IMG/VR virus record: IMGVR_UViG_3300005437_000011
Source: a virus
Lineage: Duplodnaviria > Heunggongvirae > Uroviricota > Caudoviricetes
DNA: 64,000 nt
Strand: one strand, 5' to 3'
The notes beneath the pieces are model-generated. The model was not told the origin of the DNA. It ran no database searches and worked only from the letters and a program-made list of their open reading frames with translations. This document shows, one piece after another, positions 4,734 to 52,348 of the stretch. The stretch's first letter is position 1. Every line of letters starts with the position of its first letter. The translations under genes and the position numbers were made by a program.

Positions 4734-5465
4734 ATGCCTAAATTGAATCAGATTCTTGCTATCGAGAAGCAAACCAAGGCCAGCGCATCGGCTGACCTGA
4801 CCGGCGTGTATCACCAACTCCAGAAGGAGGCGCTGCTCAATGGCGTTTCCCGGACGTATGCAGCCAAGGACGACGACGGCGAGCGCTTCCCGAGCGAGAG
4901 CCAGATCGTGCAACTCAATGTGGCCAAGCTGCTGGAGACGGTAGCGAAGTCGCTGACCCCGCTCTACAACGTCACCGCGCAGCGCGACATCGCGAACTGT
5001 TCAGCGCAGGCGGACGTTGTGGTCGATGGCGTTACGCTGCTCACGGGCGTACCGGCGACGCATCTTCTATGGCTCGAGAAGCAATTCATCGACCTGCACA
5101 CCTTGATCTCGAAGCTCCCTGCGCTTCCGCAGACCGAGACCTGGACGTACGACGCGGGACAGTCGTGCTGGAAGACAGCAGCCGTCGAGACGGCGAAGAC
5201 GAAGAAGATCCCGAAGGCGTTCGTGAAAGCGCCCGCCACCGTCGAGCATCCGGCTCAGGTCGACGTGGTGCACGAAGACGTGATCCAAGGCTACTGGACA
5301 ACGGTGAAGTTCTCCGGGGCACTGCCGAAGGACCGTATCCAGACTCTGCGGGAGCGCATCGAGAAGCTGCTCGCCGCCGTAAAATTCGCACGCGAACAAG
5401 CCAATCTAGTTGAGACGGTGAAGGTCGATACGGCCGGCCCGCTCTTCGGCTTCCTCTTCGCGTGA
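4734..5465 (+). CDS. hypothetical protein (243 aa)
   Basis: Long clean ORF with an ATG start. No motif recognised. Confidence 0.5.
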   Translation: MPKLNQILAIEKQTKASASADLTGVYHQLQKEALLNGVSRTYAAKDDDGERFPSESQIVQLNVAKLLETVAKSLTPLYNVTAQRDIANCSAQADVVVDGVTLLTGVPATHLLWLEKQFIDLHTLISKLPALPQTETWTYDAGQSCWKTAAVETAKTKKIPKAFVKAPATVEHPAQVDVVHEDVIQGYWTTVKFSGALPKDRIQTLRERIEKLLAAVKFAREQANLVETVKVDTAGPLFGFLFA

Positions 5466-5890
5466 GCAAAAGACCACCAATCTCATTTTCATTATGAAAC
5501 TGACGCCATTCACGTTGCGGGGTTCCGACCCCTGTGCTCGTTCGATCCGAGCCGTCCCGACCGCGCTCTGCGCGATCTCTATTCCGGGACGTAGCCCAAT
5601 TTGGCAGAGGCACAACGTGGCGGCAACTGAGTCTGAAGCTGTAGTGGAAGACTCATTACTAGAAGCGTCTCGCCAATCGAACGGTCGTTGCCAATTTTCC
5701 CAATACACCGGTTCAAATCCGGTGGTCCTCTCTGTGCTTCGTAGCTCGCTACGGATCGCTGAGAGGACCTCGTCTAGCGGTAGGACATTGGGGTTTAAAA
5801 GCTCAGCGACGATCTTAAATGCCGTGGCGGGAACTAAGCTGAATAACAACAGAGCCCGGGGAGACGGATATTCTCCTCGGGTTCGCCTAT

Positions 5891-5965
5891 TGCAGGATGG
5901 GGAAGCCCGGTTATCCCGTCGCGTTCATACCGCGAAGAGCGCTGGTTCAAATCCAGCTCCTGCAA
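5891..5965 (+). tRNA. tRNA-Met (anticodon CAT; could alternatively be a lysidine Ile2 type)
   Basis: Hand-folded cloverleaf. Acceptor TGCAGGA/TCCTGCA, D-stem GGGA/TCCC, anticodon stem TCGCG/CGCGA with loop TTCATAC, 5-nt variable loop, T-arm GCTGG-TTCAAAT-CCAGC, discriminator A, no encoded CCA. Confidence 0.55.
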
Positions 5966-6149
5966 CGAAGATTGGAGGCAGTCATGCGGCAACCTGGGAA
6001 AAGCCCCGGGGCGCGGAATACGCGCTGAGCCAACAACACCAAATTCTCTGTTCGAGTGGTGCCCATGGTGGGCTTGTAGGAACGCAAGTTACTAGGGCGC
6101 GTAGCGGAGCTGGGACGCCGGCATTGATGCGAAACGCCCGCAACGAAAG

Positions 6150-6229
6150 CACGGTGTGGCGTAGCCTGGTAGCGCGCCGCGGAAGCGCGAATTACGCGGA
6201 GGTCGCCGGTTCAAATCCGGTCACCGTGC
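6150..6229 (+). tRNA. tRNA-like gene with atypically extended anticodon arm
   Basis: Acceptor CACGGTG/CACCGTG, D-arm GCGT..GCGC, T-arm GCCGG-TTCAAAT-CCGGT and a 5-nt variable loop all fit a tRNA. The anticodon arm is CCGCG-(13 nt)-CGCGG, or an 8-bp stem with loop GCGCGAA. Confidence 0.35.
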
Positions 6230-6234
6230 CCATG

Positions 6235-6316
6235 AGGGGCGTGACGCAATTGGAGACGTGTCACGGGAGCGAGCTCGAGAACGTGATTGATGCCGGTTCG
6301 AATCCGGCCGCCTCTC
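6235..6316 (+). tRNA. tRNA-like gene with 16-nt anticodon loop region
   Basis: Acceptor AGGGGCG/CGCCTCT (one G-U), perfect T-arm GCCGG-TTCGAAT-CCGGC, anticodon stem TCACG/CGTGA enclosing 16 nt. Starts 5 nt after the previous tRNA-like gene. Confidence 0.35.
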
Positions 6317-6446
6317 CTCACCCAACGCAATTGAGCAAACGGGTACTTAGTGCACAGCCAAATGAGACCGCCACCCGGTTGGCGTCCATCGCCTTGAGCG
6401 TGATGGGAAGCGCTGCGGCGCGGCCGGATTCGATTCGAGGTGCAGC

Positions 6447-6689
6447 GTGAGCGCGCTTGGCATTCCTCGCCAGCCTCTACCGAGAGGAGCGCGCGCATTC
6501 GTTCTGCGCTTCGTCGCCTCCGGAGCATGGCGTTCTGAGCTGACCATCATTCGCCACTTTGCTAGGCGCTACACGCAGACGGTCGTCGAAGACACACTGT
6601 TTGAATTAGTGCTCGCGAAAAAAGTAGCCTGGTTTGGCGCTGAAGACCCCAACGGCCACCTCCCGCTTCGGTATCGGGTGACACCGTGA
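6447..6689 (+). CDS. hypothetical protein
   Basis: 80-aa ORF immediately upstream of the HNH gene. Confidence 0.25.
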   Translation: MSALGIPRQPLPRGARAFVLRFVASGAWRSELTIIRHFARRYTQTVVEDTLFELVLAKKVAWFGAEDPNGHLPLRYRVTP

Positions 6690-18003: not shown

Positions 18004-18311
18004 CCACTCCGTTCAATCCAGAGCACTGCTCATGCGATGAATCCAAAGCCTGGAGAACGCGTGCTCTGGCGGCCGAGCTCTCCCTGCGCTACGCCCGAGG
18101 CCAGCTCCGCCGGCTGCTTGAGCATTTCGATCGGGTCCTGGACGAGATGCCGGGTGAGGACCTTGAAACGCCGGAAGGCGTACTCGGCGCGACGCATCGA
18201 GCGGACGAGCCGCTTCGAGACGCAGACAGCATCTGGAAACTCGGAAAAGTAGTCGATTGGATGCTGCTACGTGTCCGTGGCGACGGCTCGCCGAAATCGG
18301 AGCGACCTTGA
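18000..18311 (+). CDS. hypothetical protein
   Basis: GTG start. The GGTCAagTGACC palindrome spans the stop/start junction. Confidence 0.35.
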   Translation: MTTPFNPEHCSCDESKAWRTRALAAELSLRYARGQLRRLLEHFDRVLDEMPGEDLETPEGVLGATHRADEPLRDADSIWKLGKVVDWMLLRVRGDGSPKSERP

Positions 18312-18817
18312 GCACTAGAACTTTGGCGCTTGACCTGGACGGCGTGGTCAATAGCGCCGTCTGGTTCGAAAAGATGGACTGCGACGCGCTCAGCCGTCGG
18401 CCGATTCATCACATGATCGACCCTGATTGCGTCGAACGTCTCAACCGACTGCTCGAAATCAGCGGCGCGGACGTCGTGATCTCGTCGTCCTGGCGCATCC
18501 CTCACAGCGTGGAGGCGATCGACGCAGCCCTGACCTACAAGGGTTTTCGCGGCAACATCATCGGGGCGACGCCGCACAACATGCCGCCGCGGGGGCGCGA
18601 GATCCACCGGTTCATGATCGACCACGCACTAAGCGTCGATCACTTAGTGATCCTCGACGACGACTCGGACATGGGAGCGCTTGCCCATCGGCACGTCAAA
18701 ACGTCGTGGAGCGTAGGGCTCACGGATGCGGACGTGGAGAAGGCACTCCTGCTGTTCGGTGTGCCGCGGGCAACGACGGATTTTGTTGAAGTATTGCCGC
18801 CGGAGGAAATCGGATGA
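18257..18817 (+). CDS. HAD-superfamily phosphatase-like protein
   Basis: LALDLDGVVN is HAD motif I. The real start is probably near 18309. Confidence 0.4.
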   Translation: MDAATCPWRRLAEIGATLSTRTLALDLDGVVNSAVWFEKMDCDALSRRPIHHMIDPDCVERLNRLLEISGADVVISSSWRIPHSVEAIDAALTYKGFRGNIIGATPHNMPPRGREIHRFMIDHALSVDHLVILDDDSDMGALAHRHVKTSWSVGLTDADVEKALLLFGVPRATTDFVEVLPPEEIG

Positions 18818-27662: not shown

Positions 27663-28204
27663 ATAAGCCAACCGTACTGCTCGATGTCGACGGCGTCCTT
27701 GCTGACTTCGCCGGGGCGCTCCTGCGTTGGGCTGGGCCGAAATACACGCGCGAACAGCTCACGGAATGGGACCTGACGAAGGCCTTGGGACTCGGAGATC
27801 GCCAGCACCTGTTCGACGAGTACGCCAGCGAACCGGGCTTCTGCGAGTGGCTCCCGGTCATTGATGGCGCTCAGGACTTCGTCGAAGGACTCCGTTCTGT
27901 CGCCGACATCGTCATTGTTACGAGCCCCTACTCAGCGGCGCGCCTATGGACATTCGAGCGGCTGCGTTGGCTTGAGAGGCACTTCGGCATCTCGAAGTAC
28001 GACGTCATTTTCGCGAAGCGGAAGTACCTGGTGCGTGGCGACATCATGGTCGATGACGGTCCGCACAACATCGAAGAATTCGTGATGCGCGGCGGGCATG
28101 GGTTGCTGATCGAGCAGCCGTGGAATGCAGCAAGCTTGGTGCCCGGCGCCAGGCGTTGCCGGACGTTGGAGCAAGCTCTCGAAGCTGTCAGGGAGACGGT
28201 GTGA
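27659..28204 (+). CDS. 5'(3')-deoxyribonucleotidase (NT5C-type HAD)
   Basis: VLLDVDGVLADF is motif I. MVDDGPHNI is motif IV. Confidence 0.6.
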   Translation: MNKPTVLLDVDGVLADFAGALLRWAGPKYTREQLTEWDLTKALGLGDRQHLFDEYASEPGFCEWLPVIDGAQDFVEGLRSVADIVIVTSPYSAARLWTFERLRWLERHFGISKYDVIFAKRKYLVRGDIMVDDGPHNIEEFVMRGGHGLLIEQPWNAASLVPGARRCRTLEQALEAVRETV

Positions 28205-28875
28205 CCCGCCAGCATCCGACCACCGGCGCACTCGCCAACTTCGCTCCCTGGACATCCCGGGAAGACGCGACTCTCCGCACTTGCTACGCCCGTGGCGGCA
28301 TCAAGGAAGCGGTGGCCGCTATCCCAGCTCGGTCACAGGCAACGCTATTTCACCGAGCTCAGCGTATTGGGCTGAAGCGGCGCCTACGCTGGACAGAGGC
28401 GGACGACCAAAGAACTGCAAGCTCCTGCCTCGATCTGCAGGCGGGTGTCCACCACGCTACCGGTCGGGTCTCTTCTGCGCTTGCTGTGCCCAGCCAAAGC
28501 GAGTACAAACTGAGTGCACCCCGCGTCGCTGCTACACGACCGGGGCGCGTGGCCCGCGATCAACGGGCTCGGAATGGGTACCACGTGATTCGCGTCTACC
28601 GCTACCGACTTTACCCGACGCGCGCCCAAGAGGCGACGATGCACGGAGCGCTCGACATGCTGCGAGAGCTGTACAACGCGAGTTTGCAGGAACGCATTGC
28701 CGCGCACCGCGCTGGCATCAAGCTTTCCTGTTACTCGCAGCAAGCCGAGCTTCGAGAAGTCCGGGCTGTGCGCCCCGCTCTGGAGGTCGCTGCGGTCGTC
28801 GGGTCAAAGCAGGTAGAATGGCTGTTGGTGAATGGTTATCTGACGCCGTTGCCTGCAAAGGACGGCGCGTCGTGA
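28201..28875 (+). CDS. GcrA-like N-terminal HTH protein fused to or followed by a TnpB N-terminal-like segment (possibly a pseudogene remnant)
   Basis: WTSREDATLRTCYARGGIKEAVAAIPARSQATLFHRAQRIGL is GcrA-like. YRYRLYPTRAQEATMHGALDMLRELYNASLQER matches the conserved TnpB (IS605 OrfB) N-terminus. Confidence 0.4.
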   Translation: MTRQHPTTGALANFAPWTSREDATLRTCYARGGIKEAVAAIPARSQATLFHRAQRIGLKRRLRWTEADDQRTASSCLDLQAGVHHATGRVSSALAVPSQSEYKLSAPRVAATRPGRVARDQRARNGYHVIRVYRYRLYPTRAQEATMHGALDMLRELYNASLQERIAAHRAGIKLSCYSQQAELREVRAVRPALEVAAVVGSKQVEWLLVNGYLTPLPAKDGAS

Positions 28876-29648
28876 GGCTCGCATGGGTCACTGACCCGCA
28901 TCTCGATCATGCTGGGCACGGCAAAACGATCGACTTTGCGCAGAAGACGGCGGCTGTCTCGGACGCCTGCGTCATCACCGGAGACATAGGCACCGCGCGC
29001 ACGGTCGTGCGATTGCTCGAAGTCTTTCAGCGCAACTATCGAAAGCCGATTTGTTTCGTGCTGGGCAACCATGACTTCTACGGTGGTGAATTCGCCAGCG
29101 TTGCGCGCTCGGTTCGGAAAGCATTCGGTTGCTCGTATCTTGATTCCGGTGCGGTCTTCCGCCTCACTCCCGGTGTAGACCTTTGCGGCGTAGACGGATG
29201 GTATGACGCCCGGTTTGGATCCCCAGAAACCAGTAGCGTTCAGCTGAACGATTGGTCGGAGATTCAAGACCTTCGTGAGTGCGTTCAGTCGCGGACGTTG
29301 ATTCCTGCGCTACGCCTGATTGGTGACCACTTTCATCAAAAGGCATTGGAGACGCTCGCTCGCGCCACGGCGAAGCGAGTCATCTTCGCGACTCACGTCC
29401 CACCGTTTGCCGAATCGAGCACCTACAACGGCAAACAGAGCGACGCGAATTGGCTGCCTTGGTTCAGTTGCAAGGCGCTCGGGGACGCCCTTCGTGAATG
29501 GGCAGAGATGAACCCAGAACGCGAGATCGAGGTGGTCTGCGGTCATACTCATGGCCGGGCAACATTCCAGCCATTACCGAACCTGACCGTGCGCACTGGG
29601 TTTGCCGAATACGGGGCGCCGTGTGTCGAGATGATTCTCGACATTTAG
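28872..29648 (+). CDS. calcineurin-like metallophosphoesterase
   Basis: VTDPHLD, ITGDIG, VLGNHDFY and CGHTHG. GTG start in a GTGA overlap. The 507-aa ORF-track call is a composite. Confidence 0.6.
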   Translation: MRLAWVTDPHLDHAGHGKTIDFAQKTAAVSDACVITGDIGTARTVVRLLEVFQRNYRKPICFVLGNHDFYGGEFASVARSVRKAFGCSYLDSGAVFRLTPGVDLCGVDGWYDARFGSPETSSVQLNDWSEIQDLRECVQSRTLIPALRLIGDHFHQKALETLARATAKRVIFATHVPPFAESSTYNGKQSDANWLPWFSCKALGDALREWAEMNPEREIEVVCGHTHGRATFQPLPNLTVRTGFAEYGAPCVEMILDI

Positions 29649-41298: not shown

Positions 41299-42402
41299 TC
41301 AAAATTCGTGGTCGCGAATTACGATTGGTGCGTCATCGCGGCCCTTCCAATATGGTTCGATCCACTTGCGCGTGCGATCAGCATGCCCTGGTCCGCAAGC
41401 TTGATTGCGCCAATGCCCGCGCACAACCCATCGCACTTTGAATGCGCGGTTCACCTCGCCCGTTAGGAAGGCGTGCATCGCCGGGATCGCGTTCACCTTC
41501 ACTGGCGAGCCGAGCACATAGTCATTGTTCGCGCGCAGCCCGAACTTGCCCTTCGGTGCGCCCTTGCTACCCTCCCCTTTGACCTTGGTGATCCCGTGGT
41601 TCTCCATGGCCAGGATGACGTTGATCGCTAGGAGCTTCCCGAGTTCTACGGCGCGCGTCTCCAACACGTCCGGGGCCACGGTGCCACCATTAGGGCCCCA
41701 AGGATGAGAGACGGTAGCGCACAATTCATCGGCGGTCAGCGGCCCGCTCCAGAGCTGAACCGCGCCGACGTCTAGGCGTACTTGCCAGTAGGGCGCCGTG
41801 CGCGAGCGTCTGCCGGGCATTGGCACCTCGTCCCCGCGATAACTCATCACGGCGACGCACTGGCACCAGCTCTTACCGGTCGCGTCGATCGCACCTTCGA
41901 TAGGCTCGTCCGAGAGCACAACGGGGAATGATTCCGTTTCCAAGGTGATCGAAAATGCAGGCCACGGCGCGCGAAGGGCTTCGGCTTGTTCTGCGGTCAC
42001 GTCAGTCAGGCAAAACGCTGCGGCCTGTTGCGCGGTAATAAACAGGTTCGGCAGCCCCATCTCGAACCAGCGAGCAGACCAGATCAGCTGGTCGCCGAAC
42101 TTGCTGTCGATGCCGGGACCGAAGACGAACCCGCAAACGGCCGTGGCGATCATGTCGCTCTCGATCGACCGAGTGATGGTCGACAGGACGCGGCCGCACG
42201 CGGCAAGGCTGTAAGCGCTGATGCCGCTCGCGGCCATAACGCGAACGGGCGCCGCAAGATCGCGCGAAACTTTCGCCAGCGCCTTTGCGCCGATTCTCTC
42301 AAGCGCCAAGCGAATGGTACCGGACTCTTCCGGGTAGCGTTCGAAGAACTGGTCCATCGCCGCGGGGAATTCTTCAGCCTTCAGCACTTGAAAGTAGTTC
42401 AT
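41299..42402 (-). CDS. hypothetical protein 'Y1' (paralog of 55185..56279)
   Basis: C-terminus VRWVVRGHWRNQACGPGHADRTRKWIEPYWKGRDDAPIVIRDH aligns with VQYVVRGHWKNQVHGSGRAERKFIHIEPYWRGPEDAPIAVRSH. PWPAFSITLE/PWPAMMIRVPE also shared. Confidence 0.55.
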   Translation of the reverse strand: MNYFQVLKAEEFPAAMDQFFERYPEESGTIRLALERIGAKALAKVSRDLAAPVRVMAASGISAYSLAACGRVLSTITRSIESDMIATAVCGFVFGPGIDSKFGDQLIWSARWFEMGLPNLFITAQQAAAFCLTDVTAEQAEALRAPWPAFSITLETESFPVVLSDEPIEGAIDATGKSWCQCVAVMSYRGDEVPMPGRRSRTAPYWQVRLDVGAVQLWSGPLTADELCATVSHPWGPNGGTVAPDVLETRAVELGKLLAINVILAMENHGITKVKGEGSKGAPKGKFGLRANNDYVLGSPVKVNAIPAMHAFLTGEVNRAFKVRWVVRGHWRNQACGPGHADRTRKWIEPYWKGRDDAPIVIRDHEF

Positions 42403-43340
42403 ATTTCTTCGTGTTTCTTCGGTCGCAGACGGGTACCACCGGCCGCGCGATTCAATTTTTCCAACAAGTCCAATCGCCTGAACTCAAGGTGCAAGTTCCT
42501 GTTTTTGAACGCTCGAAAGCGAAAGAACTGCGTCTCACCAAACTCACCGCGTGGCGTGACCTTGATCGCGTCCGACAGCTCACTGTAGTGGCGCTTCGAT
42601 GTGTTTCCGAGCCCGGCAAGCGCGCTAAAAACGTTCTCCAGCGCTGTCAGTCGCTGCTCTGCCCAGTGACTGACGCGCATGCCAGGGCCGTGGAACGGAA
42701 GCTCGACAACGCCGCTGAGCACGACCTTGGCTGGGACTTCGAATTCAGAGTTCGTTTTGTATTCGCTGTTGTGCGGGCGGAGCCATTCGAATACCTCGTC
42801 GATCGCGGCTTCAATCATGCTAGGCAGCTGGTCTTGGAACTGCTTCACCATGGCGGCCACGTTGGCCTCGGTGATAGGTAGGACCTCACCTTTCTTGAGC
42901 TGTTCCTCAAGTTGCTCCCAGGCTTTGATCGACATGGCGCGACGTAGCTCCAGCCGTTCGACGAGCGTTTTCCAGATCGAACGTCGCAGCTCGGTGATCT
43001 CGTCCACCGGCTTCTCGAAGTTGATTTGGCGTCGCCACTCCCCAAAACAGATGCCTCTGTAGCTGTCGAGAGTGAAGGCGTCGTTCAGCGCATTCACGGC
43101 GCGCGCAATCATCTGGCAGCCCGTTGCGATCTCGCTTTCGCTTCGTTCATAGATGCTCACCAATTCGGAAACGGAGAGCCGTCCAGCGAGCTGATTCCCG
43201 GCCTCACTACGCGCGAACTCGCGGCAAGCTTCACACAGGCCGCCCTCGTCAGCCCCGATGGCCTTATAGCACTCGGAGCATTCAGGACGCTCGGAGTCAT
43301 CCTCTGCGTCAGATGTCGACGCGGGCAATAGCGCGGTCAC
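42399..43340 (-). CDS. hypothetical protein 'X1' (paralog of 49516..50388)
   Basis: LRRSIWKTLVERLELRRAMSIKAW...HNSEYKTNSEFEVP...NLHLEFRRLDLLEKLNRAAGGTRLRPK aligns with the corresponding blocks of X2. N-terminal CxxC...CxxC. Confidence 0.55.
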   Translation of the reverse strand: MTALLPASTSDAEDDSERPECSECYKAIGADEGGLCEACREFARSEAGNQLAGRLSVSELVSIYERSESEIATGCQMIARAVNALNDAFTLDSYRGICFGEWRRQINFEKPVDEITELRRSIWKTLVERLELRRAMSIKAWEQLEEQLKKGEVLPITEANVAAMVKQFQDQLPSMIEAAIDEVFEWLRPHNSEYKTNSEFEVPAKVVLSGVVELPFHGPGMRVSHWAEQRLTALENVFSALAGLGNTSKRHYSELSDAIKVTPRGEFGETQFFRFRAFKNRNLHLEFRRLDLLEKLNRAAGGTRLRPKKHEEI

Positions 43341-49198: not shown

Positions 49199-49519
49199 AT
49201 GAACGCCGAAACGCTGCACACCCCGATGCTACTTGGCCGGATTGAGGGCGAGGAGATCCGTTCGCGCTATCTGACCAGCGAAACGCTCTGCGAGGTGTAC
49301 GGGCGCCTAGCTGACGGCTGTGCTTATAGCGTGATGGTCCGGCATGCTGGATCCGGTTTCGTGGTCCGTGTCAGCGACCAACGAAAAGTCCAGCAGCCGA
49401 CGCGCACGGGCCCGGACTACTACTGGAACAAGGCGAAGGTTTCTCGTCACTCGAGTGAGGCGGCCGCTGTGAAGGCAGCCGGCGGCCATCTCACGGCATT
49501 TCGGGAGCTAAGCCAATGA
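49199..49519 (+). CDS. hypothetical protein
   Basis: Start MNAETLHT at 49199, after the palindrome at 49171-49182. The N-terminal part of the ORF-track call (from 49163) is a translation of the palindrome. Confidence 0.4.
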   Translation: MNAETLHTPMLLGRIEGEEIRSRYLTSETLCEVYGRLADGCAYSVMVRHAGSGFVVRVSDQRKVQQPTRTGPDYYWNKAKVSRHSSEAAAVKAAGGHLTAFRELSQ

Positions 49520-50388
49520 TGGGCGCGCTCGGATTTCTAGCGCCGTCGGACTCAGGCGATCCGGAGGACGACGACGCAGCCACAAGGCGTCTCACCGTCC
49601 GCCTTAGCCCCGCCCAGCTCGTGGCTGTTTACCGTCAGGCAGAGCGCGACATCAAGCAAGGTTTCGCGCTGATTGACGGCGCGGAGGACGCGCTCAATGC
49701 GGCTTTCACGCTCGACGGGGTGAGCGGGGTTAGCGTCCAAGGCCACAGCAACACATACCTCGACTTCAGCAAACCTGAAACCCGCTTGAAAGAGGTTCGC
49801 CGTTCGCTCTGGCACACGATGGTGGAGCGGCTCGAGATCCGCCGGCTCATGTCGATCAAGGCTTGGAAAGAGCTGAACGAGCAGATCGACAAGGGTGAAG
49901 CCCCCGAGCTGACCGAAGAGGCAATCGCGGCGATGGTGAGGCAGTTTTCGGAGGCCGCCCCCGCCATGCTCGAGCAGGCGGTGTGCGAGGTTTTCGACTT
50001 CCTACGCCCGCCGAATAGCGAATACAAGCGCAACTCCGAGTACGAAGTCCCGCGCCGAGTCGCGCTGACTTGGGTGATCGATACCTGGTACATCAAGGCG
50101 TTTGCGAGCCAGGGCATGCGCCCGCGGCACGAATGCGAACAGCAGCTCTCCGCGCTCGAAAACGTCTTTTCATCACTCGACGGTCAGGGCTCCGTGTCCA
50201 AGGGGCACGTGAGCAATCTGTCGGAAGCTATTCGCAAGACGAAACGTGGAGAGCTCGGGAAGACTGAGTATTTCGCTTTTCGCGGGTTCAACAACGGGGC
50301 CTTGCATCTGGAATTCTTGCGGATCGACCTGTTGGGTAGATTCAATCGCATTGCCGGAGGCGCGCGCTTGCGGCCGAAGACAGGATGA
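49516..50388 (+). CDS. hypothetical protein 'X2' (paralog of 42399..43340)
   Basis: See X1. The conserved blocks are shared, but X2 lacks the N-terminal Cys cluster. Confidence 0.55.
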   Translation: MMGALGFLAPSDSGDPEDDDAATRRLTVRLSPAQLVAVYRQAERDIKQGFALIDGAEDALNAAFTLDGVSGVSVQGHSNTYLDFSKPETRLKEVRRSLWHTMVERLEIRRLMSIKAWKELNEQIDKGEAPELTEEAIAAMVRQFSEAAPAMLEQAVCEVFDFLRPPNSEYKRNSEYEVPRRVALTWVIDTWYIKAFASQGMRPRHECEQQLSALENVFSSLDGQGSVSKGHVSNLSEAIRKTKRGELGKTEYFAFRGFNNGALHLEFLRIDLLGRFNRIAGGARLRPKTG

Positions 50389-50554: not shown

Positions 50555-52348
50555 ATGATCACAATTGACGACGCCCGCACGCGGGACATGGACGACGCCA
50601 TCGAGGTCGAAGAGACCACGGATGGCTGGATCGTTCGTGTCGCCATCGCCGACGCAAGCCGTCTCGTCACGCCGGGCAGCGAGCTGGACGTGGCGGCCCG
50701 CGCCCGGGGCAACACGCTGTACTTCGGGACCGGTAACAGTCCAATGCTGCCGCGTGAGATCGGCGAGTGGCAGCTATCGCTCTGGCCCGGTAAGACCAAG
50801 CACGCCATCACGGTCGAGATGCGCCTTTCCCAGAATTTGGGGCTGGATGAAACAACGCTCAGCCTCGGTAAGATCGTGAGCGCACACAAGGTCGCCTATG
50901 CTCAGGTTCCGTCGCTGCTCGCGGGCGCTCCCGCAGTAGAGGATCTCGGCCCGTTGCTCAATTCGGCGCGCAAGCTCGCGCTCGGTCTCCTCAAGAAACG
51001 CCGTGAGTCAGGCGCGCTCGTCTTCTATGATCTGAACAACGGTTGGGTGACGACTGAGGAAGGCTCGGTCAAGAAGCTCAAGGACCACACGGAGACGATC
51101 GGGTACATCATCGTTCAAGAGCTGATGGTTCTCGCGAACACCGCGGTGGCGCTGTACGCCATCGATCACAAGCTGCCGATGCTGTTCCGCAACCACGAGA
51201 CCAGGGGCGGCTCGGCGCCCGATCGCGAGGAGATCCAGGCGCTCATCGCTTCGGGCGCGGAGAACCCGGTCATTGACCTGGAATCGTTTCAGCACCGCAC
51301 CCACAAGCTGTTCAAAAAGGCTGAGTACGGATCGATGCTCACTGGGCACGCCGGCCTTAGCGTCCCGGCCTACCTGCACTTCACCTCACCCATTCGCCGC
51401 TACGCCGACCTGGTGGTCCATCAGCAGTTGCGATCTCACCTCAAAGGCGAGCCGCTTCCACACAGCGAGGAGGGCCTAGCGGCGGTTGCTGCCCATCTGA
51501 ATGAACTCGCGAAGAAGGATGTGGAAAGCAACCGAGCGCACTTCAAGGGCCGCGACGAGTCGCAGGCTAAGAAGCAGGTCGAAGCGCGCAAACTTGACGG
51601 CTTGAACGCCAAACAGTTCGAACGTGTGGTGAAGGTCGAGGTCCGCTCTGGGGAAAGCCCGTCAGAAGCACTGGTGGAGGCGTGGGAACGCCGGCTTGTC
51701 GATGGCAGCGTGCCGACCATCTGCATGACGACCGTGCTCATGCTGGGGATCGAGGTGGACGGAACCGGCCTGAAACGTGTACCGGTTGCTGACGGCTGGG
51801 ACGTGATCAAGACGCTGACGATCGGGTATCTCGCCGAGCACACGCCGGAAGCGATCTCGATCCTCGCCCAGGCTGGCGCACTCGGCTGGCCAGACGTCAG
51901 GATCGATATCGTCTCGACGGGTCCAGCACACGCGCCGCGGTGCACCGGTTCCGTCGCCATCAAGCTAGATGGCGGGTTGGTTAGGGGTATATCAGTCGGG
52001 AAAACGGTTAGAGTTGCAGAACAGCGCGCAGCAGTATGCTTGCTGGCAGAACTCGCGATGGTCGCTACCCCGCAGTTCGAAGCACTCGAGCCTCTACCGC
52101 CAGCACCGGTCATCGAAGCGAAGCCGCGCCTCGACCTCAACAAGCACCCCGTTTCCCAGCTCATGGAGCGAAGCCAAGCAGAGCGTCAACCGCCACCGAA
52201 GTTTGATTTCACCGTAAAGGGTGAGGCGCACCTCCCCGTCGTGACGTGCACAGCGAGCTTTCTGGGAACGACGGTTTCGGCGGTCGCAGCGTCGAAACAA
52301 GAGGCGAAGACGGCTGCGGCCAAGCTGCTACTGGAGAAGGTCGAATGA
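50555..52348 (+). CDS. RNase II/R-family (RNB domain) exoribonuclease with C-terminal dsRBD
   Basis: IDDARTRDMDDAI is RNB motif I. GHAGLSVPAYLHFTSPIRRYADLVVHQQL is motif IV. C-terminus VVTCTASFLGTTVSAVAASKQEAKTAAAKLLLEK is dsRBM-like. No cold-shock or S1 domain is evident. Confidence 0.7.
   Translation: MITIDDARTRDMDDAIEVEETTDGWIVRVAIADASRLVTPGSELDVAARARGNTLYFGTGNSPMLPREIGEWQLSLWPGKTKHAITVEMRLSQNLGLDETTLSLGKIVSAHKVAYAQVPSLLAGAPAVEDLGPLLNSARKLALGLLKKRRESGALVFYDLNNGWVTTEEGSVKKLKDHTETIGYIIVQELMVLANTAVALYAIDHKLPMLFRNHETRGGSAPDREEIQALIASGAENPVIDLESFQHRTHKLFKKAEYGSMLTGHAGLSVPAYLHFTSPIRRYADLVVHQQLRSHLKGEPLPHSEEGLAAVAAHLNELAKKDVESNRAHFKGRDESQAKKQVEARKLDGLNAKQFERVVKVEVRSGESPSEALVEAWERRLVDGSVPTICMTTVLMLGIEVDGTGLKRVPVADGWDVIKTLTIGYLAEHTPEAISILAQAGALGWPDVRIDIVSTGPAHAPRCTGSVAIKLDGGLVRGISVGKTVRVAEQRAAVCLLAELAMVATPQFEALEPLPPAPVIEAKPRLDLNKHPVSQLMERSQAERQPPPKFDFTVKGEAHLPVVTCTASFLGTTVSAVAASKQEAKTAAAKLLLEKVE

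What the first reader, a model, noticed from the sequence alone, without database searches (positions are those of the whole stretch)
5583..6316. Non-coding block with tandem tRNA-like genes, one canonical (Met-CAT) and two with grossly extended anticodon arms, mis-called as a 318-aa ORF
ORF 5494..6450 translates through four GGTTC(A/G)AATCC T-loop signatures (the source of the repeated GSNP in its translation). Hand folding gives a canonical 75-nt tRNA-Met(CAT) at 5891-5965. Two further genes lie only 5 nt apart (6150-6229 and 6235-6316). Their acceptor, D and T arms are canonical, but the anticodon arm encloses 13 and 16 nt instead of 7. In both cases the insertion contains a short GC palindrome (gcgc, cgagctcg). 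A T-arm-plus-acceptor-3' fragment at ~5700-5733 has no partner 5' strand; instead its complement GAGAGGACC lies downstream at 5771-5779. Possible explanations are degenerate or pseudo tRNAs, tRNAs with small intervening sequences, decoys or substrates for a host anticodon nuclease, or remnants of an attP-like site built from tRNA 3' ends. A phage tRNA block with systematic anticodon-loop expansion would be unusual.
Basis: seen in the sequence. Interest (0 to 1): 0.6.

Follow-up and report, generated by a model that had tools for sequence, protein, structure and literature searches.

The report
Tandem tRNA-mimic RNA beside DUF7873
The "tRNA-like block" is mostly a previously undescribed, widely conserved ~420-nt structured RNA built from two circularly permuted tRNA look-alikes that always sits just after one unknown protein gene (DUF7873) in hundreds of soil bacteria and their phages, followed here by one normal tRNA-Met and two lineage-specific tRNA-shaped genes that cannot decode.

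Summary
Infernal finds tRNA-Met at 5891-5965 and two tRNA-shaped genes at exactly 6150-6229 and 6235-6316. Their anticodon loops hold 13 and 16 nt. The 318-aa ORF is a false gene.

The main result lies upstream, at 5469-5889. The "orphan T-arm fragment" is half of a conserved structured RNA. This RNA has two permuted tRNA-like modules, each ordered T arm, closed acceptor hairpin, D arm. It also has CUSA motifs repeated every 6 nt, a near-invariant internal loop, and a kissing contact to the 3' hairpin. On 39 sequences, 87.6% of pair cells are paired (67% in shuffles) and 76 of 87 pairs change on both sides.

The RNA follows the DUF7873 gene in 175 of 186 loci, with a median gap of 39 nt. In a reverse test, 15 of 15 RNAs found by an RNA-only pattern had DUF7873 upstream. 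DUF7873 has no fold or family match.

Rfam has no family for this RNA. Its modules resemble YrlA, the Ro60-bound Y RNA, but score far below threshold, and no Ro60 gene is nearby. I read it as a new tRNA-mimic ribonucleoprotein; its function is inferred, not shown.

The two long-loop tRNA-likes are missing from the closest relatives. They are most likely non-decoding remnants or decoys.

The parts
4734..5465 (+). DUF7873 gene (243 aa), the invariable upstream partner of the RNA
   Evidence: PF25283, E 8e-94. There are 2696 homologues. The AF2 model has pLDDT 91.8 with no fold match.
5469..5889 (+). DUF7873-associated structured RNA, whole unit
   Evidence: The family HMM hits window 5469-5898 at E 7.6e-64. 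Covariation supports the structure. Synteny holds in 175 of 186 loci.
5474..5477 (+). P1 5' strand (CCAC), pairs with GUGG at 5644-5647
   Evidence: The family P1 is GGAGYG/CRCUCC and covaries. The window version is a compensatory variant. This assignment was made by eye and is one register off.
5482..5503 (+). Four CUSA-type motifs at 6-nt spacing (CUCAuuUUCAuuAUGAaaCUGA)
   Evidence: The family columns give A-R-N-C-U-S four times, with A at 0.80-1.0, C at 0.58-0.94 (0.85-0.94 in the first two repeats) and U at 0.88-1.0. No covarying partner was found.
5505..5624 (+). Module 1, a permuted class-II-like tRNA mimic. Closing stem CACGUUG 5511-17 / CAACGUG 5613-19; variable-arm hairpin 5519-32; T arm 5536-52; acceptor hairpin CGUCCCG 5553-59 / CGGGACG 5585-91 followed by ACC; D arm 5594-5611
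   Evidence: The MFE fold reproduces this structure. The acceptor stem is 98% paired with all 7 pairs covarying. There is a partial YrlA hit at 5535-5611.
5627..5655 (+). Central CUSA-type repeats (CUGAguCUGAagCUGUagUGGAagaCUCA), containing the P1 3' strand
   Evidence: Period-6 column pattern in alignment columns 164-194.
5664..5840 (+). Domain 2. Outer stems 5664-75/5825-40 and 5683-91/5806-14; internal loop AAUCGAAC / CUUAAAUG; module 2 with closing stem 5699-5703/5788-92, T arm 5707-23, acceptor hairpin 5724-30/5763-69 and D arm 5772-86
   Evidence: Fold z-score -4.7. Helices 9-15 are 80-100% paired and all covary. The Levitt-type 15-48 pair covaries. The internal loop is near-invariant.
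5852..5884 (+). 3' terminal hairpin whose loop GGA (5866-68) kisses UCU (5731-33) of the module-2 acceptor loop
   Evidence: Alignment columns 268-384 give G-C 40, U-A 40, U-G 9 and A-U 3 of 93 sequences. Within the window's own clade L017 has GCC/GGC against UCY/GGA in the others.
5891..5965 (+). Canonical tRNA-Met (CAU)
   Evidence: RF00005 61.7 bits and ARAGORN. It is also present after the RNA in L016, L021 and L182 (in L016 and L021 the contig ends inside the tRNA).
6150..6232 (+). tRNA-like A: canonical acceptor, D and T arms, 5-bp anticodon stem, 13-nt loop GAAGCGCGAAUUA, encoded CCA
   Evidence: RF00005 47.1 bits. Its body is closest to an initiator-type tRNA-Met and to Pro tRNAs of related phage loci.
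6235..6316 (+). tRNA-like B: canonical arms, 16-nt loop GGAGCGAGCUCGAGAA
   Evidence: RF00005 36.2 bits. No close relative was found.
5494..6450 (+). Spurious 318-aa ORF running through all five RNA genes
   Evidence: ORF listed. It was called as a gene in a Logan assembly with no Pfam hit. The 108-aa ORF 6124-6450, its 3' part across A and B, has no homologues.

Best explanation
SHOWN.
- 5469-5889 encodes one member of a large, conserved family of structured RNAs that is physically coupled to the DUF7873 gene.
- The RNA has two domains. Each is a long irregular stem capped by a circularly permuted tRNA-like module, in the order T arm, acceptor-type stem closed into a hairpin, D arm. The features that make the tRNA elbow are kept: U8, A14, G18G19, the UUCRA T-loop and a covarying 15-48 pair.
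- Single-stranded CUSA motifs repeated every 6 nt flank module 1.
- A near-invariant internal loop (AUCRA / CUUAAAYGUG) sits in domain 2.
- The loop of the 3' hairpin base-pairs with the loop of the module-2 acceptor hairpin.

INFERRED.
- The RNA and DUF7873 form a ribonucleoprotein.
- The two tRNA elbows act as tRNA mimics that dock tRNA-recognising factors such as RNase P, modification enzymes, the CCA-adding enzyme or ribosome-associated factors. The repeats and the invariant loop are protein-binding platforms. This is the working logic of the Ro60-Y RNA (YrlA) particle, but with a different dedicated protein.
- Phages carry the pair inside or beside their tRNA gene clusters, presumably to manipulate or protect tRNA/RNA metabolism during infection.

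THE REST OF THE BLOCK.
- 5891-5965 is an ordinary tRNA-Met whose RNase P processing would also define the 3' end of the RNA.
- 6150-6232 and 6235-6316 are tRNA-shaped transcripts that cannot decode, because their loops hold 13 and 16 nt. They are lineage-specific. Most likely they are disabled descendants of the tRNA cluster that flanks DUF7873 in related phages, possibly retained as tRNA-shaped decoys or processing signals.
For: Structure:
- MFE folds give the permuted cloverleaves.
- Four close relatives give 31 compensatory pairs out of 122.
- 39 representatives give 87.6% of cells paired, against 67.4% in shuffles and 39-49% when partners are slid. 76 of 87 pairs change on both sides. 0 of 500 shuffles reach the observed values.
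- The 15-48 pair and the kissing pair covary.

Coupling to DUF7873:
- The RNA is downstream on the same strand in 175 of 186 loci. The median gap is 39 nt and 94% lie within 150 nt.
- All 15 full-length RNAs recovered by an RNA-only pattern have DUF7873 upstream, at 31-49% identity.
- Neighbouring genes otherwise vary.

tRNA-mimic logic:
- Both modules align full-length to YrlA RF02553 in the bacterial relative L038, and module 1 in L028 and L063, all below threshold.
- YrlA is a proven substrate of RNase P, the CCA-adding enzyme, TruB and DusA (PMC4201824).

The repeats are not coding:
- The bias is at the nucleotide level, some members break phase by 1 nt, and there is no start or stop codon.

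A and B:
- Infernal scores them as tRNA-shaped.
- They are absent from L017, L018 and L182.
- Related phages carry large tRNA clusters around DUF7873.
Against: - No expression, binding or processing data exist for any member.
- DUF7873 has a near-neutral pI and no recognisable RNA-binding fold. Complex formation rests on synteny alone.
- Covariation was measured on MAFFT and nhmmer alignments without a phylogeny-aware test.
- The closing stem of module 1 is poorly aligned (helices 3-5).
- In the window clade P1 is only 4 bp and was assigned by eye.
- For A and B there is no variation to test selection on. A third case in an intact, tightly spaced tRNA array (L152) argues that long-loop tRNA-likes may be functional rather than decaying.
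Confidence: 0.6

Rival explanations
1. The RNA is a true Y RNA of the YrlA type. It works with a Ro60/Rsr protein encoded elsewhere in the host or phage genome, and DUF7873 is an accessory or unrelated neighbour.
For: It has the same permuted topology as YrlA. Both modules give full-length sub-threshold RF02553 alignments in L038. The domain-2 5' strand motif AUCRANCG resembles the proposed Ro60 motif GNCGAAN0-1G (PMC4201824). The carrier taxa overlap with taxa known to have Rsr (PMC4201824).
Against: Scores are 14.6-28 bits against a gathering score of 69. Only 14 of 93 sequences match the strict motif. No TROVE domain was found among the window's ORFs or in the phage-locus flanks examined. 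Published YrlAs lie within 4 kb of Ro60, whereas this RNA tracks DUF7873 instead.
Confidence: 0.15
2. The two long-loop tRNA-likes A and B, and the L152 case, are functional decoys or sponges for tRNA-targeting enzymes such as host anticodon nucleases, or they serve as RNase P/Z punctuation signals. They are not decaying genes.
For: All four stems are perfect and only the loop is altered in both genes. They are spaced 5 nt apart as in an operon. A has an encoded CCA. An independent case sits in an intact tRNA array.
Against: They are not conserved in the nearest relatives. No homologues were found elsewhere. A decoy for an anticodon nuclease would be expected to keep the target loop. Fold energies are no better than shuffles.
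Confidence: 0.2
3. A and B are tRNAs with short intervening sequences that are removed to give decoding tRNAs.
For: The insertions lie in the anticodon loop, where tRNA introns sit. The last 7 loop nt of B (UCGAGAA) resemble a Leu(GAG) loop (for comparison).
Against: No bulge-helix-bulge motif and no group I intron core is present, since the inserts are only 6-9 nt. No U33 context is left in A. No splicing endonuclease or RNA ligase was found in the window.
Confidence: 0.05
4. The RNA is a tmRNA-like or aminoacylated molecule. Module 1 is opened by RNase P, CCA-tailed and charged, and the 6-nt repeats are read as alternating polar/Leu codons.
For: The acceptor stem is 7 bp. A occupies position 73 in 91% of sequences, followed by C or U. 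M. smegmatis YrlA is cut and CCA-tailed in vivo. The D arm looks Leu-like, and Leu anticodon loops occur in variant L102. The repeats read as (K/R/N/S)-(L/F/I/V).
Against: There is no start, resume or stop signal. L095 and L099 break phase by 1 nt. The constraint is A-R-N-C-U-S at the nucleotide level, with CGN and UCN codons almost absent. There is no G3-U70 pair. ARAGORN and Rfam tmRNA models do not hit. The acceptor loops are often only 5-9 nt.
Confidence: 0.05
5. The element is a cis-acting 3' UTR of the DUF7873 mRNA, acting as a stabiliser, terminator or autoregulatory site, and not a trans-acting RNA.
For: It lies a median of 39 nt after the stop codon on the same strand. It ends in a hairpin followed by a U-run in many members.
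Against: At 350-420 nt with two tRNA-like folds and tertiary contacts, it is far more than a terminator needs. A -10-like box lies 12-20 nt upstream in 38 of 92 members. In L071 it lies on the opposite strand.
Confidence: 0.1
6. The region 5494-6450 encodes the 318-aa protein.
For: It is an open frame with an ATG start, and one assembly pipeline called it as a gene.
Against: It runs through five Infernal- or covariation-supported RNA genes. GC3 is 0.59, lower than both flanking genes (0.79 upstream, 0.62 downstream) and among the lower values in the window. The Logan-called 318-aa ORF has no Pfam hit on record, and the 108-aa ORF 6124-6450 across A and B has no homologue. Relatives conserve base pairs, not codons.
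Confidence: 0.01

Closest known systems
YrlA / bacterial Y RNAs bound by Ro60 (Rsr); Rfam RF02553; Chen et al. 2014, PMC4201824
   Same: The tRNA-like domain is in permuted order: T arm, acceptor-type stem closed by a loop, D arm. The 5' and 3' strands form a long stem with internal loops. tRNA tertiary features are kept, including the Levitt pair. Members occur in Actinobacteria, Deinococci, Myxobacteria and in phages. Y RNAs often come in tandem (YrlA/YrlB).
   Different: This RNA is coupled to DUF7873, not to a TROVE protein. Two modules sit in one ~350-420-nt transcript. It has CUSA repeats with a 6-nt period, a different invariant internal loop and a loop-loop contact to the 3' hairpin. 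It scores far below the family threshold.
Two-piece (circularly permuted) tmRNA of alpha-proteobacteria and cyanobacteria
   Same: The gene order is permuted, with the T arm and 3' acceptor strand ahead of the 5' acceptor strand. A weak cyano_tmRNA hit falls on module 2 of L038.
   Different: There is no tag reading frame, no pseudoknot series, no alanine identity pair, and no detection by ARAGORN or the Rfam tmRNA models.
Circularly permuted tRNA genes of Cyanidioschyzon merolae and other algae/archaea (PMC3978253)
   Same: The 3' half of the tRNA is encoded upstream of the 5' half, joined through the acceptor region.
   Different: Those genes yield normal decoding tRNAs through a circular intermediate, a BHB motif and the splicing endonuclease. 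Here there is no anticodon loop at the junction, no BHB motif, and the setting is bacterial or phage.
Large phage-associated ncRNAs found next to tRNA genes (GOLLD, ROOL; PMC12286853)
   Same: They are big, ornate, of unknown function, frequent in phages and prophages, and adjacent to tRNA clusters.
   Different: There is no sequence or structure match in Rfam. This RNA is built from tRNA-like modules and has a dedicated protein gene.
Canonical tRNA (RF00005), for genes A and B
   Same: The acceptor, D, T and anticodon stems and the tertiary nucleotides are present, and scores are above the gathering threshold.
   Different: The loops hold 13 and 16 nt instead of 7. The only natural exception found in the review consulted is an 8-nt loop (PMC7609411); 9-nt loops are from my own recollection. 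The genes have no usable U33-anticodon-R37 context.

Membership tests
DUF7873-associated RNA (family defined here) | Significant match to the family profile built from relatives | tested here: met
   nhmmer hits window 5469-5898 over model positions 41-418, E 7.6e-64.
DUF7873-associated RNA (family defined here) | Location directly downstream of a DUF7873 gene on the same strand | tested here: met
   The gene ends at 5465 and the RNA starts at about 5469. The family-wide figure is 175 of 186 loci. The reverse test gave 15 of 15.
DUF7873-associated RNA (family defined here) | Two permuted tRNA-like modules, an internal loop AUCRA/CUUAAAYG, and a kissing 3' hairpin | tested here: met
   The window has AAUCGAAC / CUUAAAUG and UCU/GGA.
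YrlA / Y RNA (RF02553) | Score at or above the Rfam gathering threshold (69 bits) | tested here: not met
   The window gives 14.6 bits, partial, at E 9.8. Bacterial relatives give 24-28 bits.
YrlA / Y RNA (RF02553) | Encoded within about 4 kb of a Ro60/TROVE gene | tested here: not met
   No TROVE domain was found among the ORFs scanned in the 64-kb window or in the flanks of eight phage loci. A few dubious ORFs were not scanned.
YrlA / Y RNA (RF02553) | 5' motif GNCGAAN0-1G, the proposed Ro60 contact | tested here: inconclusive
   The related motif AUCRANCG is near-invariant, but only 14 of 93 members fit the strict pattern.
YrlA / Y RNA (RF02553) | Binding by Ro60/Rsr | not testable with these tools
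   Needs immunoprecipitation.
tRNA (RF00005), genes A and B | Covariance-model score above the gathering score of 29 | tested here: met
   47.1 and 36.2 bits. Both hits are lost with the default filters on the full window.
tRNA (RF00005), genes A and B | 7-nt anticodon loop with U33 and a readable anticodon | tested here: not met
   The loops hold 13 and 16 nt. ARAGORN forces an alternative fold for A and misses B.
tRNA (RF00005), genes A and B | Aminoacylation and decoding | not testable with these tools
   Needs tRNA-seq or acid-gel northern blots.
tmRNA (one- or two-piece) | Detection by tmRNA models, a tag ORF with a stop codon, and a G3-U70 pair | tested here: not met
   ARAGORN finds no tmRNA in the window. 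Rfam gives none. Acceptor position 3-70 is C-G in the consensus.
Circularly permuted tRNA gene (algal/archaeal type) | The junction forms an anticodon stem-loop with a BHB motif, so that a decoding tRNA results | tested here: not met
   The closing stems continue into long irregular helices with no 7-nt anticodon loop. Only the variant L102 shows anticodon-type loops between units.
DUF7873 (PF25283), protein 4734-5465 | Pfam gathering score | tested here: met
   314 bits against a cutoff of 27, full length.

The most novel reading that the evidence does not exclude
DUF7873 and its RNA form a previously unrecognised, Ro60-independent class of bacterial and phage ribonucleoprotein that descends from tandem tRNA-Leu-like genes. 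Two tRNA elbows, held in a fixed geometry by a kissing loop, present tRNA shapes to the tRNA-processing or translation machinery. A ladder of CUSA motifs (fossil or mimic Leu anticodon-loop sequences) binds a multimeric partner. Module 1, with its 7-bp acceptor stem and conserved A73, may be opened by RNase P and CCA-tailed as M. smegmatis YrlA is. Phages would use the particle, together with tRNA-shaped decoys such as A and B, to control tRNA-directed host defences or RNA decay.
Probability: 0.4. Interest if true: 0.85.

Novelty: new variant of a known kind. Interest (0 to 1): 0.75.

Why it matters
- A structured RNA of 350-420 nt with a dedicated partner gene appears to be unannotated. It gave 578 confirmed hits in the one-genome-per-species collection (Streptomyces, Nocardia, Myxococcus, Sorangium, Ktedonobacteria, Chloroflexia, Deinococcales, Armatimonadota) and also occurs in many soil and jumbo phages.
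- It has no Rfam family, and no paper in the searched library mentions DUF7873.
- It would be the second independent use of a permuted tRNA fold as an RNP module, after the Ro60-YrlA particle. It gives a concrete, testable handle on the function of DUF7873.
- There are practical annotation consequences. Gene callers put false ORFs across it (318 aa here). tRNA finders produce chimeric or odd calls such as 'tRNA-Leu(gag)', 'tRNA-Pro(cgg)' and 'tRNA-???'.
- The long-loop tRNA-likes add a small, unexplained class of non-decoding tRNA-shaped genes in phage tRNA clusters.

Tried and rejected
- **Exact DNA patterns.** Patterns from the window clade found nothing in IMG/VR or in the metagenome collection.
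- **Phage BLAST of the block.** Only the tRNA-Met region matched.
- **Family and sequence searches for DUF7873.** PDB sequence search, PHROGs, NCBIfam and PADLOC gave no hits.
- **Literature.** Searches for DUF7873, YrlA, permuted tRNA and tRNA-like ncRNAs found no prior description.
- **Coding or tmRNA-like reading of the 6-nt repeats.** Considered in detail and rejected.
- **Pairing of the 5' repeats with the central repeats.** Looked for by eye and with an all-against-all covariation scan. No consistent partner emerged. The first scan was too permissive to be useful.
- **Normal-register tRNA reading.** This would use the 5' acceptor strand of module 1 with the 3' strand of module 2 (RF00005 27.9 bits in L016). 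It works only in the window clade and is not conserved in the family.
- **Clade-specific hairpin GAGUCU/AGACUC.** RNAalifold proposed it on four sequences. The wider family does not support it.
- **Search for homologues of A and B through the overlapping ORF.** Found nothing.
- **RNA-only pattern scan.** Unspecific: 120+ hits. Filtering with the family profile was still informative.
Full report
**1. Check of the observation**

- With Infernal run on 5400-6600, RF00005 hits 5891-5965 (61.7 bits), 6150-6229 (47.1 bits) and 6235-6316 (36.2 bits). All exceed the gathering score of 29.
- The last two hits have 13 and 16 nt between the anticodon-stem strands, where a tRNA has 7.
- On the whole window with default filters only the Met gene survives.
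- ARAGORN reports Met. It also reports 6150-6232 as 'tRNA-Pro(cgg)' through an alternative fold, and it misses the third gene.
- Gene A is followed by an encoded CCA at 6230-6232.
- ORF 5494..6450 (318 aa) exists.

**2. What the 'fragment' really is**

By eye, the stretch after the stop codon of the upstream gene contains two units in the order T arm, acceptor-type stem closed by a loop, D arm. In each unit the flanking strands pair where a tRNA has its anticodon stem. Minimum-free-energy folding returns exactly these permuted cloverleaves.
- 5500-5630 folds with a class-II-type variable hairpin.
- 5678-5822 folds with z = -4.7, and 0 of 200 shuffles fold as well.
- The only Rfam family that touches the stretch is YrlA, the bacterial Y RNA, which has this same permuted layout. 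The hit is weak and partial: 5535-5611, 14.6 bits, E 9.8.

**3. Relatives and covariation**

The upstream gene 4734-5465 is a full-length DUF7873 (PF25283, E 8e-94).
- Contigs encoding its closest homologues (84-95% identity: L016, L017, L018, L021, L182) keep the about 420 nt after the stop codon. Their acceptor stems carry compensatory changes, for example CGUCCCG/CGGGACG against CCCGCGU/ACGCGGG against CUUCCCC/GGGGAAG.
- On four sequences RNAalifold predicts 122 pairs, and 31 of them change on both sides.
- A profile from these four sequences, iterated with nhmmer, finds the RNA after distant DUF7873 genes in IMG/VR contigs and bacterial genomes.
- I tested a hand-drawn structure of 87 pairs on a MAFFT alignment of 39 representatives below 80% identity. 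It is paired in 87.6% of cells, against 67.4% in column shuffles and 39-49% when partners are slid by 1-3 columns. 76 pairs show changes on both sides. None of 500 shuffles reaches the observed values.
- The two T arms, both acceptor hairpins, both D stems and four helices of domain 2 are 80-100% paired.
- The closing stem of module 1 is badly aligned and not well tested.

**4. Architecture of the family**

This is based on 93 non-redundant members.
- *5' helix P1.* GGAGYG pairs with CRCUCC about 140 nt downstream. It covaries: GGAGUG/CACUCC, GAAGUG/CACUUC, CGAGCG/CGCUCG, GGGUGAA/UUCAUCC.
- *5' repeats.* Four hexamers A-R-N-C-U-S lie between P1 and module 1. A is at 0.80-1.0, C at 0.58-0.94 and U at 0.88-1.0. 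In other words, a CUSA motif recurs every 6 nt.
- *Module 1.* The acceptor stem is 7 bp. It is followed by A in 91% of members and then by C or U.
- *Central repeats.* Several more CUSA-type repeats at 6-nt spacing contain the P1 3' strand.
- *Domain 2.* Two covarying outer helices enclose a near-invariant internal loop, AUCRANCG opposite CUUAAAYGUG. Then comes module 2, with a longer acceptor hairpin.
- *3' hairpin.* Its loop GGM pairs with the first three loop bases (K-C-Y) of the module-2 acceptor hairpin. For the covarying pair the counts are G-C 40, U-A 40, U-G 9 and A-U 3 of 93.
- *tRNA-like 3D fold.* In module 2 the positions equivalent to tRNA 15 and 48 covary (A-U 82, G-C 11). U8, A14, G18G19 and the UUCRA T-loop are conserved. 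The modules therefore very probably adopt the tRNA elbow.

The window RNA has all of these parts (coordinates in 'parts'). Its clade replaces P1 with a short CCAC/GUGG pairing and uses UCU/GGA for the kiss. L017, in the same clade, uses GCC/GGC.

**5. Coupling to DUF7873**

- Of 186 loci collected through the protein, from viral, genome and metagenome collections and from exact-protein look-ups, 175 have the RNA downstream on the same strand. The median distance is 39 nt and 94% lie within 150 nt.
- One locus has the RNA on the opposite strand. Seven contigs end too early to tell. Three lack the RNA despite having enough flank.
- In the reverse direction, an RNA-only pattern (T-loop plus CUUAAA plus AUCRA) pulled 120 viral stretches. 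Fifteen of these carry a long match to the family profile, and all fifteen have a DUF7873 gene (31-49% identity) directly upstream. The thirteen short matches are ordinary tRNA arms and have no DUF7873.
- Other neighbours vary. In bacteria they include P450, LysR and ribosomal protein L9 genes.
- In phages the pair sits inside or beside large tRNA clusters with homing HNH genes.
- A -10-like box lies 12-20 nt upstream of P1 in 38 of 92 members. In L071 the RNA is convergent with the gene. The coupling is therefore not merely co-transcription.

**6. The protein**

- It is strongly conserved, about 55% identity across phyla.
- AlphaFold gives a confident model (pLDDT 91.8, pTM 0.63) of long helical hairpins packed on beta sheets.
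- PDB sequences, PHROGs, NCBIfam and PADLOC give no match.
- Its pI is near neutral.
- Nothing therefore says directly that it binds RNA. That step is inferred from synteny.

**7. Not coding**

- The repeats read as alternating polar and hydrophobic codons, which at first suggested a tiny ORF or a tmRNA-like message.
- Against this, the constraint sits on nucleotides: A, then C-U. Polar positions use only ARN codons, with almost no CGN or UCN.
- L095 and L099 shift phase by one base.
- There is no conserved start, resume or stop codon.
- The long ORF through the block is an artefact of high GC content. Relatives conserve base pairs, not codons, and the 108-aa ORF 6124-6450 has no homologues.

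**8. Comparison with known families**

- *YrlA.* It shares the permuted tRNA-like domain, the terminal stem with internal loops, the taxa, the presence in phages and the tandem habit. [quoted passage not shown]
- *YrlA membership fails.* Scores are 14.6-28 bits against a threshold of 69. No TROVE gene was found in the window or the inspected flanks. The proposed Ro60 motif is matched strictly in only 14 of 93 members.
- *Other families.* Two-piece tmRNA and algal permuted tRNA genes share only the gene order.
- *Prior description.* Rfam 15 has no family for this RNA. The paper library has no mention of DUF7873 or of such an RNA.

**9. Origin**

- Phage versions of module 1 have a D arm of the GGUGGCGGAAYNGGYAGACGC kind. 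From my own knowledge, this is typical of bacterial tRNA-Leu.
- The window's module 1 has a class-II-type variable hairpin, and A73 is conserved.
- In the variant L102 (88% protein identity) successive units are joined by 5-bp stems with 7-nt loops CUCAGAU, CUGAGAA and CUUAAAC. These are the Leu anticodons CAG, GAG and UAA.
- The family motifs CUCAGACU, CUSA and CUUAAAYG may therefore be fossil or mimic Leu anticodon loops. The family probably arose from tandem tRNA-Leu-like genes. This is inference.

**10. The rest of the block**

- tRNA-Met follows the RNA in the window, and in L016, L021 and L182.
- A and B are absent from L182, where the Met gene is followed by a protein gene. They are also absent from L017 and L018, where the RNA is followed by protein genes.
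- The only other copies are the near-identical contigs L019 and L020.
- A's body is about 80% like an initiator-type tRNA-Met of L002 and like Pro tRNAs of related phages. B has no close relative.
- A custom scan of about 180 loci for tRNA shapes with non-7-nt loops found only one more good case, L152:3460-3547. It scores RF00005 41 bits, has a 24-nt loop, and lies 5 nt from the next canonical tRNA in a phage array beside DUF7873 and its RNA.
- Known natural tRNAs have loops of 7 nt, exceptionally 8 (the only exception I found in PMC7609411; 9-nt loops are from my own recollection). A and B therefore cannot decode.
- I favour disabled descendants of the tRNA cluster, possibly kept as tRNA-shaped decoys or processing signals. 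The perfect stems and the L152 case keep a functional reading alive.

**11. Limits**

- There are no expression or binding data.
- The covariation statistics are not phylogeny-corrected.
- Some window ORFs that looked spurious were not scanned.
- Co-occurrence with Ro60 could not be tested.
- The function of the particle is an analogy, not a result.

Noticed in passing
window 50555-52348 (+): A 597-aa RNB-domain 3'-5' exoribonuclease (RNase II/R-like), fused at its C-terminus to two double-stranded-RNA-binding motifs. This is an unusual phage nuclease.
   Followed up: partly
window 18257-18817 (+) and 28125-29648 (+): A HAD_SAK_2 domain protein ('Swiss Army Knife RNA repair'), and a 507-aa metallophosphoesterase with an unassigned 250-aa N-terminus. 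Both suggest RNA repair, but no RNA ligase was seen.
   Followed up: no
window 42399-43340 (-) and 49516-50388 (+): Two paralogous DUF4942 genes on opposite strands.
   Followed up: no
L102:1127-1462: A variant of the RNA in an 88%-identical DUF7873 relative. After module 1 come further T-arm/acceptor-hairpin/D-arm units, linked by 5-bp stems with 7-nt loops that carry the Leu anticodons CAG, GAG and UAA. ARAGORN calls one of them tRNA-Leu(gag). The contig ends before the array does.
   Followed up: partly
L152:3460-3547: A tRNA-shaped gene (RF00005 41 bits) with 24 nt in the anticodon loop. It sits inside a tight canonical tRNA array in a phage contig that also carries DUF7873 and its RNA.
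   Followed up: partly
L137:2096-2184, L154:881-968: ARAGORN reads the 5' hairpin, the repeats and the T arm of the RNA as 'tRNA-Leu(gag)' or 'tRNA-???'. These calls would appear as odd tRNAs in genome annotations.
   Followed up: partly
L009:5707-7436: A 393-kb phage contig carries two tRNA(UCA) suppressor-type genes and a tmRNA within 2.7 kb downstream of DUF7873 and its RNA.
   Followed up: no
L071:3779-4148 (- strand): The only locus where the RNA is convergent with DUF7873 instead of co-directional.
   Followed up: no
window 6183-6195 and 6266-6281: The oversized loops of A and B both begin GRAGCG (GAAGCG.., GGAGCG..). This is the same hexamer as the family's 5' P1 strand GGAGYG, which the window-clade RNA itself lacks. 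The last 7 nt of B's loop (UCGAGAA) resemble a Leu(GAG) anticodon loop.
   Followed up: no
L083, L056, L084, L089, L092, L065, L064, L082, L060, L073, L062, L057, L079: In about a dozen Streptomyces loci the profile matches only from model position ~95-108 onward. Their 5' domain (repeats plus module 1) is either very divergent or missing.
   Followed up: no
window 5966-6149 and 6317-6446: Two spacers of 184 and 130 nt around the tRNA-likes have no RNA-family hit, no promoter-like site and no relatives. The first folds somewhat better than shuffles, z = -1.9.
   Followed up: partly
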